DNA of 64,000 bases from a virus. Lineage: Duplodnaviria; Caudoviricetes. The position numbers and the translations under genes were made by a program. How positions within the stretch are numbered: the stretch's first letter is position 1; each line of letters begins with the position of its first letter. The notes under the pieces are model-generated. The model had not been told where the DNA came from. It worked only from the letters and a program-made list of their open reading frames with translations, and did not search any database. The stretch lies in the IMG/VR virus record IMGVR_UViG_3300029288_000067, positions 160,067 to 224,066 of that record. One strand, given 5' to 3'. Of this stretch, positions 46,469 to 49,594 are shown piece by piece.

Positions 46469-48118
46469 ATGAACAAGAAGATTTTTGCAAACTCTACGGC
46501 TACCAAGAAAGTTCCTGTGGCTGATACCAAAAATTTGGCGGGTGGGAAAGCCTACAGCATGACCGATGAACATGCCCTTGCACAGATTGCTTCTACGGGC
46601 TGTTTCGGCAACACCTACTATGCCAACGCGGAAGATCAGCTTGAGAAGGTCCTTGAATTGGTAAAGAAGGTAGATCCGGTCTTTGTTGCAAAATTGGCTG
46701 TGTACTCTCGGAAAGAGGGCTACATGAAGGATATGCCTGCAGTTCTTGCCGCGTATCTTTCCACGGTGGATGCCGGATTGCTCCGTAAAATTTTCGCACA
46801 AGTTGTTGATAATGGGAAGATGTTGCGGAACTTCTTTCAGGCAATCAAATCGGGGAAGTTTGGTCGTACGTCTTTCGGACGGGCTCCAAGTTCCCTCATT
46901 CAGGGGTGGTTTGACTCCCACGATGAAGATTACATTTTCCGGAACAGTATTGGAAATGATCCTTCATTCTCGGATATCATCCACAACATCCACATCAAGC
47001 CAAAAAATAAGGCCCGGGAAGCCCTTTACGGTTACATCATGGGTAAGAAAGTAGTAACAAATGCGAAGGACATGGTTAAATCCAAGTCCGGCAAGTTTGT
47101 TACCGTACAAGAAAAAACCCTCCCGGGCATCGTTCGAGAGTATGAGGCATTCAAACGATTCAAGTTGGACGGGAAGAAGTGTGTTGGTCTCCCGGATGTT
47201 CCTTTCCAGATGTTGGATAGTCTCAACCTCTCCTCTGAAGATTGGAAGGAAGTTGCAAAAAATGCCCCGTGGCATATGTGCCGTATGAACTTGAACACCT
47301 TCATGCGTCATGGTGTATTTGCCGATTCTGAAATGGTGACTTTGATTGCAGATAAGTTGAAAAATGAGTATGCAATCAAGAAATCCAAGGTATTCCCATA
47401 CCAGTTGTTCTCTGCCTTCACGTATGCGGATGCGGCAATGCCACATGCTATTCGGGAAGCCTTGCAGGATGCTTTGGATGTTTCTCTCTACAATGTTCCG
47501 GAGATGGCGGGGAATATTGTGGTGTGTCCTGATGTTTCTGGAAGCATGAAATCTCCTATCACGCAGGCCCGGGGAGTTGCTTCTAAGATTCGCTGTGTGG
47601 ATGTTGCCGGTCTTGTGGCCTCTGCTATCCTCCGAAAGAATAAGAGTGCTCGGGTTATTCCTTTCGAGAATGATGTTGTGAATATTCCTCTGAATTCTCG
47701 GGACTCCGTAATGACCAATGCGGCAAAACTTGCTGCGGTTGGTGGTGGTGGAACTTGTTGCGCGGCCCCTCTTGTCAAGCTCATCAAAGAAGATGCAAAG
47801 GTTGATTTGATCGTGTATGTCTCCGATAATGAATCTTGGATCAACCCAGCAAGACACACGGGATATGGGTGGGGAAGAACATCGACAAGTGGAACCGCTG
47901 TAATGGATCTTTTCCAGAAGTTGAAGCACAAGAATCCGAATTTGAAGATGGTTTGTATTGATCTCACCCCGAATACAACCCTGCAGGCTCCTGACCGAAA
48001 GGACATCCTCAACATCGGGGGGTTCTCGGATACAGTGTTTGAATTGATGGATCTCTTCCATCAGGGTTTGTTGGATGCAAAGCATTGGGTGGATGTTGTT
48101 AAAAAAGTTCAACTTTAA
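46469..48118 (+). CDS. rsr: Ro60/TROVE-domain RNA-binding protein (Rsr-like)
   Basis: NLAGGKAY, TGCFGNTYY, GYMKDMP, MNLNTF.RHGVF, VFPYQL; vWA DVSGSM, GGGT, SDNESW, IGGFSD. Confidence 0.95.
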   Translation: MNKKIFANSTATKKVPVADTKNLAGGKAYSMTDEHALAQIASTGCFGNTYYANAEDQLEKVLELVKKVDPVFVAKLAVYSRKEGYMKDMPAVLAAYLSTVDAGLLRKIFAQVVDNGKMLRNFFQAIKSGKFGRTSFGRAPSSLIQGWFDSHDEDYIFRNSIGNDPSFSDIIHNIHIKPKNKAREALYGYIMGKKVVTNAKDMVKSKSGKFVTVQEKTLPGIVREYEAFKRFKLDGKKCVGLPDVPFQMLDSLNLSSEDWKEVAKNAPWHMCRMNLNTFMRHGVFADSEMVTLIADKLKNEYAIKKSKVFPYQLFSAFTYADAAMPHAIREALQDALDVSLYNVPEMAGNIVVCPDVSGSMKSPITQARGVASKIRCVDVAGLVASAILRKNKSARVIPFENDVVNIPLNSRDSVMTNAAKLAAVGGGGTCCAAPLVKLIKEDAKVDLIVYVSDNESWINPARHTGYGWGRTSTSGTAVMDLFQKLKHKNPNLKMVCIDLTPNTTLQAPDRKDILNIGGFSDTVFELMDLFHQGLLDAKHWVDVVKKVQL

Positions 48119-48308: not shown

Positions 48309-48455
48309 AGGTGGAAACTACGCAAGGGATTACATGGACATTAAATCCCCCGCTGTAAAAAGCATGTAGGTTCGAGTCCTACTCTCCCCACTCATGGGGA
48401 GATGGCGAAATTGGTAGACGCAGGAAAAAAATATCTCTTCATCTTTGATCCACCT
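48309..48455 (+). ncRNA. Y-RNA-like element 2 (permuted tRNA-Leu-like domain)
   Basis: AGGTGGA/TCCACCT stem; T-arm, then loop-closed acceptor TCTCCCCA-CTCA-TGGGGAGA, then D-arm. Confidence 0.85.
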
Positions 48456-48471
48456 GATTTTATAAGTTAGT

Positions 48472-48537
48472 GCTTGAAACTATCCGAGGGATTACATTTT
48501 TTGGTAAAATAACAATCTCTCACTATTTTGTTCAAGC
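48472..48537 (+). ncRNA. Y-RNA-like element 3 (minimal)
   Basis: GCTTGAA/TTCAAGC and GAGGGATT/AATCTCTC stems. Confidence 0.75.
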
Positions 48538-48540
48538 CAT

Positions 48541-48613
48541 AGGGTATTAGTTCAGCGGCTTAGAATCCTGGCTTGTCACGCCGGAGACACGGGTTCAAAT
48601 CCCGTATACCCTG
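48541..48613 (+). tRNA. tRNA-Asp(GTC)
   Basis: Cloverleaf, acceptor AGGGTAT/ATACCCT, loop TTGTCAC. Confidence 0.9.
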
Positions 48614-48614
48614 C

Positions 48615-48750
48615 TGTGAGGAAACTACCAAAAAGGGGTTACTTCAATGTTAATGACGTGATGGGGGTTCGAGTCCCCTCCTGGAGGTCTAACTTCTGGG
48701 TAGTTTAATGGTAAAACCCGAAAAATACCTCTTTATTTTTGTTCCTCATA
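48615..48750 (+). ncRNA. Y-RNA-like element 4 (permuted tRNA domain, GTT loop remnant)
   Basis: TGTGAGGAA/TTCCTCATA stem; T-arm before D-arm TAGTTTAATGGTAAAAC. Confidence 0.85.
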
Positions 48751-48753
48751 TAT

Positions 48754-48826
48754 GCCCTCATCGAATAATGGCTTAGTTCGCCAGCCTTTCAAGTTGGAAA
48801 TACCGGTTCAAATCCGGTTGGGGGTA
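48754..48826 (+). tRNA. tRNA-Glu(TTC)
   Basis: Cloverleaf, loop CTTTCAA. Confidence 0.9.
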
Positions 48827-48829
48827 CTG

Positions 48830-48975
48830 GATCGAGATACTGTCACAAGGTTTACAACGCGGATCTTTGGCCATGGGTTCGAGTCCCATTCCTCCCCCTG
48901 TAGGAGTTCTATGGGGAGGATAGCTCAGTTGGTAGAGCAAAAGAATAAAATAACTTTGTATTTTTGATCTCGATC
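48830..48975 (+). ncRNA. Y-RNA-like element 5 (permuted tRNA domain)
   Basis: GATCGAGA/TCTCGATC stem; T-arm, TCCTCCCC/GGGGAGGA, TAGCTCAGTTGGTAGAGC. Confidence 0.85.
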
Positions 48976-48983
48976 ATCTTTTT

Positions 48984-49094
48984 CTGTAAGAGACTCACAA
49001 AGGGATTACATTTTAAGTTCAATTCTTAATTCCCCCACTCACGGGGGAATAGCCTAAATGGTAAAGGCAAATCTCTTATTACTCGCTCTTACAG
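48984..49094 (+). ncRNA. Y-RNA-like element 6 (compact YrlA-like)
   Basis: CTGTAAGAG/CTCTTACAG stem; T-arm, TTCCCCC-ACTCAC-GGGGGAA, D-arm. Confidence 0.85.
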
Positions 49095-49098
49095 TCTT

Positions 49099-49181
49099 GC
49101 GGGAGTGGTGGAACGGCAGACACGCAAGTTCGAGAGACTTGTGGGCGAAAGCTCGTGAAGGTTCAACTCCTTTCTTCCGCA
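49099..49181 (+). tRNA. tRNA-Leu(GAG)
   Basis: Class II cloverleaf, loop TCGAGAG (C33 atypical), A73. Confidence 0.8.
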
Positions 49182-49352: not shown

Positions 49353-49355
49353 TTT

Positions 49356-49441: not shown

Positions 49442-49594
49442 ATACGAGAAAACTACACAAGGGATTACATTACGCATAGGCTTGTTAAGCCTTGGCAACT
49501 TATGTGGGTTCGAGTCCCACCTGTGTTGAGAGTTATTAACACTGTGGCGGAATTGGTCTTGTTGCCATAATCTCTTAACCTTTGTTTCTCGTAT
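49442..49594 (+). ncRNA. Y-RNA-like element 8 (tRNA permuted in the D-loop)
   Basis: ATACGAGAAA/TTTCTCGTAT stem; AGGC-TTGTTAA-GCCT arm, T-arm, acceptor, TGGCGGAATTGGT. Confidence 0.8.

What the first reader, a model, noticed from the sequence alone, without database searches (positions are those of the whole stretch)
48335..49075. Circularly permuted tRNA cargoes that look independently captured from different tRNAs
Seen: elements 2, 4, 5 and 6 have T-arm, then a loop-closed acceptor stem, then D-arm. Element 2 re-circularises to a class II Leu-like tRNA (GGGGAGA TGGCGAAATTGGTAGACGC..., with a variable arm and a GGA-CATTAAA-TCC anticodon-arm remnant). Element 4 keeps TCA-ATGTTAA-TGA, an Asn-like GTT loop. 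Elements 2 and 6 share the ACTCA cap on the acceptor stem. Established: YrlA has this permuted order but normally no anticodon loop. Inference: repeated capture of circularised or tandem tRNAs into the scaffold. Retained anticodon loops could serve as bait for anticodon nucleases.
Basis: partly seen in the sequence, partly recalled or inferred. Interest (0 to 1): 0.8.

Follow-up and report, generated by a model that had tools for sequence, protein, structure and literature searches.

The report
Phage Y RNAs carrying rearranged tRNA modules
These are four of about nine small RNAs encoded behind a jumbo phage's Ro60 (Rsr) gene; each carries a tRNA look-alike written in rotated order. This is a known RNA type (YrlA), but here one module is a near-copy of a leucine tRNA, and the modules have swapped parts with each other.

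Summary
Elements 2, 4, 5 and 6 each carry a T-arm, a loop-capped acceptor stem and a D-arm on a shared stem scaffold, within 1 kb downstream of a Ro60/Rsr gene in a 224-kb phage genome. They are divergent YrlA-type Y RNAs: Rfam YrlA scores 16-37 bits against a cut-off of 69.

A covariance model built from element 4 alone found 48 distinct relatives in about 30 phage contigs and 19 in bacterial loci. All six helices covary, and so does the tertiary 15-48 pair.

Element 2 is a genuine class II tRNA-Leu derivative. It is 82% identical to a real tRNA-Leu(GAG) of the closest relative phage, and 9 of its 10 best matches among 759 phage tRNAs are Leu.

"Independent capture" is only partly supported. 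Elements 2, 5 and 6 share acceptor hairpins. Element 6's D-arm matches element 7's. The module types (generic, Glx-like, Leu-like) recur across unrelated phages. No cap carries CCA.

The "anticodon remnants" are the family-wide YrlA "V" hairpin, and its 7-nt loops do carry an anticodon-loop signature. The GTT in element 4 is not conserved in its orthologue. The nuclease-bait idea is untested.

The scan has noted similar phage RNAs on other DNA.

The parts
46469..48118 (+). Rsr / Ro60 orthologue gene (549 aa), the presumed protein partner of the RNAs
   Evidence: Pfam vWA_Ro60 1.3e-15 and TROVE 6.3e-09; thousands of Ro60 homologues at about 50% identity
48310..48457 (+). Element 2: Y RNA scaffold with a class II tRNA-Leu-like module
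   Evidence: Model R1 44.2 bits, E 5.9e-09. Re-permuted module is 82% identical to the tRNA-Leu(GAG) of L002.
48336..48348 (+). E2 small hairpin GGA-CATTAAA-TCC (anticodon-arm position; no U at loop position 2)
   Evidence: Sequence. ARAGORN on the circularised module draws it as the anticodon arm.
48350..48365 (+). E2 long variable arm (GCT/AGC stem), a class II feature
   Evidence: Aligns with the variable arm of tRNA-Leu(GAG) of L002
48366..48422 (+). E2 T-arm (48366-48382), capped acceptor (48383-48402, cap ACTCAT), Leu-type D-arm (48403-48422)
   Evidence: The D-arm differs by one T from tRNA-Leu(TAG) at 49355. The nearest D-arms among 759 phage tRNAs are all Leu.
48541..48613 (+). tRNA-Asp(GTC), interleaved genuine tRNA; 3 nt separate it from element 4
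   Evidence: Rfam tRNA 62 bits, ARAGORN
48617..48751 (+). Element 4: Y RNA scaffold, small hairpin 48644-48656 (loop ATGTTAA), T-arm 48663-48679, capped acceptor 48680-48700, D-arm 48701-48718
   Evidence: Rfam YrlA 26.8 bits. Seed of model R1. Orthologue L002:3638-3772 scores 79.8 bits. Circularised module is called tRNA-Asn(gtt) by ARAGORN.
48754..48826 (+). tRNA-Glu(TTC), interleaved genuine tRNA
48832..48976 (+). Element 5: canonical YrlA-type module, with T-arm 48873-48889, 8-bp acceptor with 15-nt cap 48890-48920, D-arm 48921-48939 and a closing stem abutting the D-arm; no small hairpin
   Evidence: Rfam YrlA 37.1 bits, E 4.2e-06. R1 47.1 bits. The D-arm is 100% identical to the L002 orthologue.
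48984..49094 (+). Element 6: minimal module grafted directly onto the inner stem, with T-arm 49013-49029, acceptor 49030-49049 (cap ACTCAC) and D-arm 49050-49069; absent from relative L002
   Evidence: The MFE fold gives outer stem, inner stem and three hairpins. Acceptor hairpin is 75% like E2 and D-arm 90% like E7. L002 has no counterpart.
49099..49181 (+). tRNA-Leu(GAG), genuine class II tRNA next to the array; likely relative of the E2 module's source
   Evidence: identities
49445..49594 (+). Element 8 (outside the finding): second Leu-derived module, paralogous to the module that sits in the E2 slot of L002
   Evidence: R1 44.3 bits. L002_E2 acceptor hairpin is 71% like E8. E8 is 81% conserved overall between the two phages.

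Best explanation
Elements 2, 4, 5 and 6 are paralogous YrlA-type Y RNAs of a phage Rsr (Ro60) ribonucleoprotein system. They are co-transcribed with the interleaved tRNAs.

Inferred: the ends of each Y RNA are set by tRNA processing, because only 2-5 nt separate each outer stem from a tRNA end. Inferred by homology to YrlA: the shared two-stem scaffold is the Rsr handle, and the tRNA-like module folds into an L shape that engages tRNA-recognising host or phage factors.

The modules were not captured one by one in this phage. They belong to recurrent tRNA-type classes of a large family found in many phages and bacteria: generic class I (E5), Glx-like (E4 lineage) and class II Leu-like (E2, E8).

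Within the array the modules evolve fast, by compensatory change and by exchange of segments among elements and with neighbouring tRNA genes. Recombination or gene conversion at the shared T-loop and D-loop sequences is the likely route. E2 is the clearest case: its D-arm, variable arm, T-arm and acceptor all match tRNA-Leu. E6 is a chimera of an E2-like acceptor hairpin and an E7-like D-arm.

The small hairpin 5' of the T-arm is the family's 'V' stem-loop. Its loop has the shape of an anticodon loop (7 nt, U at position 2, purine at 6, A at 7), so many members are complete tRNAs permuted at the D-arm/anticodon-arm junction.

Inferred only, from the genome's 31 tRNAs, two Rnl2-type RNA ligases and a CCA-adding enzyme: the RNP probably serves tRNA surveillance or repair, or counter-defence, during infection.
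For: Rsr gene and same-strand adjacency.

Rfam YrlA hits, below threshold.

Family and structure:
- R1 finds 48 distinct full-length relatives in phage loci and 19 in bacterial loci.
- All six helices show changes on both sides; 95.7% of cells are paired against 42-50% when slid.
- Levitt pair A-U 16, G-C 13 of 41; U8 38/41, A14 40/41, GG 38/41.
- Between orthologues, acceptor and T stems change on both sides yet stay paired 7/7.

E2 and tRNA-Leu:
- 82% identity to L002 tRNA-Leu(GAG). The two genuine orthologous tRNA-Leu(GAG) genes are 76% identical to each other.
- 9 of the top 10 of 759 tRNAs are Leu.
- The nearest D-arms are all Leu.

Mosaicism:
- Acceptor hairpin: E2-E6 75%, E2-E5 61%.
- D-arm: E6-E7 90%, and E2-L002_E2 85%.
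- The acceptor hairpin of L002_E2 is E8-like (71%).

Recurrent classes: 16 canonical, 11 GUGUA-type, 4 Glx-like, 3 Leu-like among the 48 phage-set elements. Further Leu-like modules occur in L059 and L076.

Hairpin loops:
- 7 nt in 32/48; U at position 2 in 24/32, purine at 6 in 30/32, A at 7 in 27/32.
- An independent parse gives U33 and R37 together in 11/17, against 13% in shuffles.
- Bacterial members show the same pattern.

Repair genes.

Published: YrlA mimics tRNA, binds Rsr and is modified by TruB and DusA (PMC4201824). It resembles a circularly permuted tRNA (10.1101/312249).
Against: - No expression, Rsr-binding or processing data exist for this uncultured phage.
- All four elements score far below Rfam's YrlA cut-off.
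- The published hallmark of conserved D and T stem sequences holds only for E5.
- An ML tree of modules plus tRNAs (66 columns) is unresolved and does not place E2 with tRNA-Leu. The Leu origin therefore rests on pairwise identity and class II characters.
- Only one close relative (L002) has an array, so the direction and timing of segment exchange are not fixed.
- The G-rich acceptor stems of E2, E5 and E6 could partly reflect the general G-richness of tRNA 5' ends.
- The model alignment was fitted to E4's structure and loop, which inflates the pairing and loop statistics somewhat.
- ARAGORN still% of modules whose hairpin region was shuffled, so its tRNA calls say little about the hairpin.
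Confidence: 0.6

Rival explanations
1. Each cargo was captured separately into the scaffold, from a different circularised or tandem tRNA, in this phage lineage. The retained anticodon loops act as bait for host anticodon nucleases.
For: - E2 is Leu-derived while E4, E5 and E6 are class I-like.
- The positional orthologue of E2 in L002 carries a different, E8-like module. E6 and the tRNA-like part of E7 are absent from L002. Cargo turnover is therefore real.
- The hairpin loops look like anticodon loops.
- The phage carries 31 tRNAs and RNA-repair enzymes, which fits a conflict over tRNAs.
- A published model derives YrlA from dimeric tRNA transcripts, possibly several times.
Against: - E2, E5 and E6 share acceptor hairpins, and E6 and E7 share a D-arm.
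- The module classes recur in unrelated phages and bacteria.
- E4's GTT is not kept in its orthologue.
- E2's loop lacks U33.
- No cap has CCA, so mature circular tRNAs are not the source.
- The loop triplets vary freely, with no bias toward known nuclease targets.
- No nuclease data exist.
Confidence: 0.15
2. All modules descend from one ancestral YrlA tRNA-like domain and diverged by drift and compensatory change. E2's likeness to tRNA-Leu is convergence, or is kept by selection for mimicry of that tRNA, and not by descent or gene conversion.
For: - One scaffold is shared by all elements, and E2, E4, E5 and E8 have the identical T-loop.
- Stems turn over very fast between orthologues.
- The ML tree cannot separate modules from tRNAs.
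- The E4 orthologues already differ in nearest isotype.
Against: The likeness covers a long variable arm, a 3-bp D-stem with an 11-nt loop, the U8-G9 junction, A73 and 82% identity over 68 nt to a real tRNA-Leu(GAG). Convergence is unlikely to produce all of these together. The D-arm is identical to the neighbouring tRNA-Leu(TAG) apart from one T.
Confidence: 0.15
3. They are permuted tRNA genes that mature into functional tRNAs, as in the red alga Cyanidioschyzon. The scaffold would be removed after the ends are joined, for example giving a Leu-type tRNA with a TTA anticodon.
For: ARAGORN calls circularised E4 a tRNA-Asn(gtt) at default settings. It calls E2 a class II 'tRNA-Stop(tta)' at reduced thresholds (80%), and at default settings once one more base of the linker is included.
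Against: - The anticodon stems are only 3 bp, and E2 has no U33.
- E5 and E6 have no anticodon arm at all.
- The family always travels with Rsr and keeps a conserved handle.
- ARAGORN also% of the shuffled-hairpin controls.
- No bulge-helix-bulge motif is evident and no splicing endonuclease is known for this phage.
Confidence: 0.03
4. They are decayed or tandem tRNA genes misread as a structure: the T-arm of one tRNA next to the D-arm of the next.
For: Rfam's tRNA model does bridge the E5 D half and the E6 T half at 39.6 bits. This shows how such artefacts arise.
Against: Each module is enclosed by its own two covarying scaffold stems. It is conserved in L002 and in dozens of loci, and it sits between intact tRNAs.
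Confidence: 0.02

Closest known systems
YrlA (Y RNA-like A; Rfam RF02553): bacterial and mycobacteriophage Y RNAs bound by Rsr (Chen et al. 2014, PMC4201824; Wang et al. 2018, bioRxiv 10.1101/312249)
   Same: - Encoded just 3' of rsr on the same strand.
- Long stem handle containing the conserved YUAY motif.
- Order of parts: T-arm, closed acceptor stem, D-arm.
- tRNA tertiary nucleotides and a covarying 15-48 pair.
- An optional 'V' stem-loop 5' of the T-arm.
- Already described in print as resembling circularly permuted tRNAs.
   Different: - Scores are 16-37 bits against a cut-off of 69.
- The 5' motif here is ACTAC followed by a purine run, where most relatives have GAATGC.
- Only E5 keeps the 'invariant' GCUC/GAGC D-stem.
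- E2 is a class II Leu copy with a long variable arm, and E4 belongs to a Glx-like lineage.
- About nine elements form one array interleaved with tRNAs.
- Modules are mosaic between elements.
Thermus phage phiLo Ro60 with Yrl1 and Yrl2 (NAR 2025, PMC12135203)
   Same: A phage-encoded Ro60 with phage-encoded Y-like RNAs next to its gene. Binding was shown in vitro, and a counter-defence role was proposed.
   Different: Yrl1 and Yrl2 lie upstream of the gene. In the passages read they are not described as tRNA-like (no occurrence of 'tRNA-like'). There are two RNAs, not an array.
Deinococcus radiodurans Yrn1
   Same: An Rsr-bound Y RNA with a T-arm-like loop and a possible 'anticodon arm'.
   Different: The arms are in a different order, there is no full D-arm, and the loop has 6 nt. 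Chen 2014 judged it to have evolved independently.
Circularly permuted tRNA genes of Cyanidioschyzon merolae, and two-piece permuted tmRNAs
   Same: The 3' half is encoded before the 5' half, and the acceptor strands are joined by a short linker.
   Different: Those genes mature into working tRNA or tmRNA. Here the permuted domain stays attached to a protein-binding handle and has no free CCA end.

Membership tests
YrlA (RF02553) | Encoded within 4 kb of an rsr/Ro60 gene on the same strand | tested here: met
   Rsr is at 46469-48118 (+). E2-E6 lie at 48310-49094 (+).
YrlA (RF02553) | T-arm, then loop-closed acceptor stem, then D-arm, enclosed by a long stem | tested here: met
   covariation of all helices across 59 distinct sequences
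YrlA (RF02553) | tRNA tertiary nucleotides, with a compensatory Levitt 15-48 pair | tested here: met
   A-U in E2 and E4 and G-C in E5; by eye A-U in E6, which the model did not recover. Family: 16 A-U and 13 G-C of 41.
YrlA (RF02553) | Score at or above Rfam's gathering threshold (69 bits) | tested here: not met
   E5 37.1, E4 26.8, E8 20.3, E2 16.1 bits; E6 not reported
YrlA (RF02553) | Near-invariant D-stem and T-stem sequences (Wang 2018) | tested here: not met
   Only E5 has GCUC/GAGC. E2, E4 and E6 differ. Canonical in 14 of 19 bacterial hits by my count from the table, but in only 16 of 48 phage-set hits.
YrlA (RF02553) | 5' motif GNCGAAN0-1G thought to contact Rsr | tested here: inconclusive
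   Relatives carry CGAATGC before GGGATTACA. The window's elements have ACTAC followed by CGAG, GCAAG or CAAAG variants.
YrlA (RF02553) | Binds Rsr; carries pseudouridine 55 and dihydrouridine | not testable with these tools
   Needs RNA from infected cells
Class II tRNA-Leu (E2 module only) | Long variable arm, 3-bp D-stem with a large loop, U8-G9, A73 | tested here: met
   ARAGORN cloverleaf of the circularised module; alignment to tRNA-Leu genes; 82% identity
Class II tRNA-Leu (E2 module only) | 5-bp anticodon stem, U33 and a Leu anticodon; free acceptor end | tested here: not met
   3-bp stem, loop CATTAAA, and the acceptor is closed by ACTCAT
Functional permuted tRNA gene | Processing signals that release a mature tRNA (end joining, cleavage at the acceptor) | not tested
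   No transcript data. E5 and E6 lack any anticodon arm.

The most novel reading that the evidence does not exclude
Phage Rsr systems carry sets of isotype-specific tRNA mimics (Leu-like, Glx-like, generic). Their modules are renewed by gene conversion from co-resident tRNA genes. Their anticodon-loop-like hairpins make them complete permuted tRNAs. These would act as decoys or sensors for host tRNA-targeting nucleases, or would guide the Rsr-associated repair or decay machinery to particular tRNA species.
Probability: 0.15. Interest if true: 0.8.

Novelty: new variant of a known kind. Interest (0 to 1): 0.5.

Why it matters
What the tRNA-like domain of YrlA does is still unknown, and so is where Y RNAs came from.

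This array bears on the origin question. One module is still 82% identical to a living tRNA-Leu, and its neighbours have visibly exchanged arms. This is the most direct sequence evidence I could find for the published but untested idea that YrlA domains derive from tRNA genes, possibly more than once. It also points to an ongoing mechanism: recombination with neighbouring tRNA genes.

Two family-level findings give testable handles on function:
- The published 'V' stem-loop carries an anticodon-loop signature.
- Phage modules fall into isotype-like classes (Leu, Glx, generic), whereas bacterial ones are nearly uniform.

These raise concrete questions. Which synthetases, modification enzymes or nucleases see these mimics? 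Do phages use them in the conflict over tRNAs?

Tried and rejected
- **ML tree.** A tree of 21 modules and 33 tRNAs (66 columns kept) was unresolved. E2 did not group with tRNA-Leu because the variable-arm columns were dropped. I did not use it and ran no AU test.
- **ARAGORN on circularised modules.** E4 is called tRNA-Asn at default settings; E2, E5 and E8 only at reduced thresholds; E6 is not called. Family-wide, 13 of 15 are called, but 53% of shuffled-hairpin controls are called too. The calls reflect the T, D and acceptor arms, not the hairpin.
- **CCA in the caps.** I tested whether CCA in the acceptor cap follows CCA in local tRNA genes. By my count from the table it is 4 of 12 caps against 1 of 14, which is not significant by my rough Fisher estimate.
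- **Search for more close relatives.**
  - An exact 29-mer of E8 found nothing in viral contigs.
  - The metagenome scan with Rsr gave 3 distant loci.
  - Rsr homologues P0003-P0006 have no downstream array, or no DNA is held for them.
  - Only L002 is informative.
- **Alignment of the two E4 orthologues.** The MAFFT alignment was out of register, so the model was built from E4 alone with a hand-written structure.
- **RtcB.** Not found in the genome.
- **Reviews.** Two Wolin-lab reviews are not held, so the dimeric-tRNA model is cited through Wang 2018.
- It was redone from coordinates.
Full report
**Context.** The window is the last 64 kb of a single-contig 224,066-bp virus record, with CheckV completeness about 90%. 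It is a jumbo phage with 31 tRNA genes. The ORF at 46469-48118 (+) is an Rsr/Ro60 orthologue, with Pfam vWA_Ro60 1.3e-15 and TROVE 6.3e-09. Its closest homologues are at 62% identity and below, and thousands of bacterial Ro60 proteins sit near 50%. Directly downstream lies an RNA-only stretch. Genuine tRNAs (Asp, Glu, Leu-GAG, Leu-TAG, Ala) alternate there with stem-enclosed elements that share one scaffold. The finding concerns elements 2, 4, 5 and 6.

**Observation check.** In each of the four elements the order is T-arm, acceptor stem closed by a loop, then D-arm. Exact coordinates are in the parts list and were checked from the sequence, where all four acceptor stems pair 7/7.

- Minimum-free-energy folds recover the outer stem, the T, acceptor and D hairpins, and for most elements (cleanly for E6) the inner stem.
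- Rfam's YrlA model matches E5 (37.1 bits, E 4e-6), E4 (26.8), E8 (20.3) and E2 (16.1). All are below the 69-bit cut-off.
- E2 has the hairpin GGA-CATTAAA-TCC followed by a separate long variable arm. E4 has TCA-ATGTTAA-TGA. E2 and E6 both cap the acceptor with ACTCA.

**Is the fold real?** I built a covariance model from E4 alone with a hand-written structure.

- It recovered E2, E5 and E8 at E about 1e-9, the E4 orthologue in the relative L002 at 79.8 bits, and 48 distinct full-length relatives in about 30 IMG/VR phage contigs.
- It also found 19 relatives in bacterial genome loci, including Planctomycetota, Hahella, Nannocystis and Acidobacteria.
- On that alignment, 33 of the 34 pairs, spread over all six helices, change on both sides. 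95.7% of cells pair, against 42-50% when partners are slid and 60% in shuffles. The alignment is fitted to the model, so these figures lean in its favour.
- The tertiary Levitt pair covaries: A15-U48 16 times and G15-C48 13 times of 41, with cross-combinations rare. U8, A14 and G18G19 are nearly invariant.
- Between the window and L002, the acceptor and T stems of E4 and E5 differ at most positions yet remain fully paired.

**What they are.** Wide spread, Rsr adjacency, T-acceptor-D order and tRNA tertiary pairs are the published definition of YrlA (Chen 2014, PMC4201824). [quoted passage not shown] That paper also cites a model in which they arose from dimeric tRNA transcripts, possibly several times. 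The relatives' scaffold (CGAATGC ... GGGATTACA) lines up with the Rfam consensus, including the conserved YUAY. The kind of object is therefore known. The four elements are divergent members that Rfam's threshold misses.

**Element 2 is a tRNA-Leu derivative.**

- The 20-nt D region of E2 differs by one T from the tRNA-Leu(TAG) gene 930 nt downstream.
- Its eight nearest D-arms among 759 phage tRNAs are all Leu.
- The whole re-permuted module has 9 Leu among its 10 best matches; the tenth is Tyr, also class II. The best score lies 4.3 SD above the mean.
- With the anticodon arm left out, it is 82% identical to the genuine tRNA-Leu(GAG) of L002. The identity covers the acceptor strands, D-arm, variable arm, T-arm and A73.
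- That is more than the 76% between the two phages' own orthologous tRNA-Leu(GAG) genes. It is far more than the 58% to the module in the E2 slot of L002.
- ARAGORN draws the circularised module as a class II cloverleaf.
- Because E2 has both the small hairpin and a long variable arm, in the order hairpin, variable arm, T-arm, the hairpin occupies the anticodon-arm position and not the variable-arm position.

**Elements 4, 5 and 6 have no identifiable separate sources.**

- Their best tRNA matches are a mix of isotypes.
- E5 is the canonical YrlA type. It has the GCUC/GAGC D-arm, identical in L002, and a short closing stem that abuts the D-arm.
- E4's orthologue has a Gln/Glu-type D-arm with the U8-C9 junction, seen also in L004, L024 and L076. 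The window's copy has drifted from it by compensatory changes.
- E6 has no hairpin and no closing stem. The inner scaffold stem plays the anticodon stem, ACATT serves as a 5-nt variable loop, and one A links the D-arm back to the stem. L002 has no E6.

**Mosaicism argues against independent capture.** Segment-by-segment identities show the following.

- The acceptor hairpins of E2 and E6 are 75% identical, and E2 and E5 61%.
- The D-arms of E6 and E7 are 90% identical.
- The D-arm of E2 is 85% identical to that of its positional orthologue in L002, but that orthologue's acceptor hairpin is E8-like (71%).
- E8 itself is 81% conserved between the phages, with a nearly identical module. E4 is 73% conserved and E2 60%, with the hairpin and variable arm present only in the window.

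The simplest reading is exchange of arms among elements and with neighbouring tRNA genes. The identical T-loop and similar D-loop sequences offer crossover points. An ML tree could not resolve any of this.

**The diversity is old and widespread.**

- Among the 48 phage-set elements the D-arms fall into recurring classes: 16 canonical, 11 of a GUGUA type, 4 Glx-like and 3 Leu-like. Each class has a matching 8-9 junction.
- Further Leu-like modules, 59-78% identical to tRNA-Leu genes, occur in L059 and L076.
- By my count from the table, 14 of 19 bacterial members are canonical.
- Earlier notes of this scan describe similar phage arrays, and a Leu-shaped rotated tRNA in an unrelated 401-kb phage.

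tRNA-type variety is thus a property of the phage branch of the family, and not a series of captures in this genome.

**The 'anticodon remnants'.**

- The hairpin 5' of the T-arm is helix 3 of the family. It is 95.9% paired, and all three pairs change on both sides. It corresponds to the 'V' stem-loop of Chen 2014.
- Its loop is 7 nt in 32 of 48 elements. In those 32, U is at position 2 in 24, a purine at position 6 in 30, A at position 7 in 27, and G is never at position 1.
- A parse that did not use the model gave U33 and R37 together in 11 of 17 loops, against 13% in shuffles.
- The bacterial members show the same pattern.
- The hairpin is usually followed by 5-7 nt, often AGGUC-like, before the T-stem. 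That matches an anticodon arm plus variable loop, and not a class II variable arm.

Loops close to CTGTTAA recur in L008, L046, Hahella, E4 and E8. E4's GTT reads ATTATCAA in its orthologue. E2's loop lacks U33. The middle three positions vary freely.

**Capture route.**

- No cap in the window holds CCA, and none of the 18 window tRNA genes scored encodes CCA either.
- E5's cap begins C-CTG and those of E2 and E6 begin A-CTC.
- This fits a DNA-level origin from tRNA genes, by tandem copies or gene conversion, and not capture of mature circular tRNAs.
- Across the family, about a quarter of caps begin N-CCA (my count). The link to CCA-encoding tRNA genes in the same locus was not significant.

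**Function.** Shown: the sequence, the structure and the genomic association. The rest is inferred.

- By homology with YrlA, the scaffold binds Rsr and the module engages tRNA-recognising factors.
- Spacing of 2-5 nt between tRNA ends and outer stems suggests that tRNA processing releases the RNAs.
- The genome also has two Rnl2-family RNA ligases and a CCA-adding-type nucleotidyltransferase, but no RtcB.
- Published work on jumbo phages places TROVE proteins with RNA repair (PMC7824862). Work on phage phiLo suggests that a phage Ro60-Yrl complex hijacks host PNPase (PMC12135203).

A role in tRNA surveillance, repair or counter-defence is therefore plausible. The specific bait-for-nucleases idea has no evidence for or against.

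**Verdict.** This is a known kind of RNA in a new variant: a Leu-tRNA-derived module, mosaic modules and isotype-like classes. As a by-product, the published 'V' stem-loop carries an anticodon-loop signature that the papers I read do not mention.

Noticed in passing
window 48914-49037: Rfam's tRNA model scores 39.6 bits (above its gathering score of 29) on a chimera of the E5 acceptor 5' strand and D-arm with the E6 T-arm and acceptor 3' strand. The scaffold between them is treated as an insert. Annotation pipelines could call a false intron-containing tRNA here.
   Followed up: partly
window 49099-49181 and L002:4185-4269: The tRNA-Leu(GAG) genes of both phages have the anticodon loop TCGAGAG, that is C instead of the near-universal U at position 33.
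   Followed up: no
L002:3917-4116: The E5 orthologue in the relative phage carries an insert of about 200 nt inside the acceptor cap. Rfam finds nothing there.
   Followed up: no
window 49445-49594 vs L002:4365-4514: The element 8 module is almost identical between the two phages, cap included. A compensatory change occurs in the closing helix (TGGCAAC/GTTGCCA to GGGCAAC/GTTGCCC) and another in the small hairpin. Elements 2 and 4 have diverged to 60-73%.
   Followed up: partly
genome outside the window: G000:C1:101187-101633(-), 69243-69776(-), 90281-90658(-): Two Rnl2-family RNA ligase genes and one CCA-adding-type nucleotidyltransferase gene. No RtcB was found.
   Followed up: partly
loci L008, L020, L024, L056, L057, L062, L145, L148: About a quarter of acceptor caps across the family begin with one base followed by CCA, far above the roughly 1 in 64 expected by chance. 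The closed acceptor thus often still encodes a discriminator plus CCA.
   Followed up: partly
L165:3250-4074 and L148:1648-2178: Loci from the prokaryotic genome collection also hold three or four tandem YrlA-like elements (L165 is a 5.3-kb contig of a metagenome-assembled genome, so its bacterial or phage origin is open). Arrays may therefore not be restricted to phages.
   Followed up: no
window 48326-48349: In the minimum-free-energy fold of element 2, the scaffold strand GGGATT pairs with AATCCC of the small hairpin instead of with the 3' scaffold strand. This is a possible alternative conformation, and it is absent from L002.
   Followed up: no
L008, L009, L024, L025, L034, L036, L046, L057, L068: Eleven phage elements share a D-arm of the form GTGTAA..GGYAGCAC, often with a TG junction. 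I did not match this recurrent class to any tRNA isotype.
   Followed up: no
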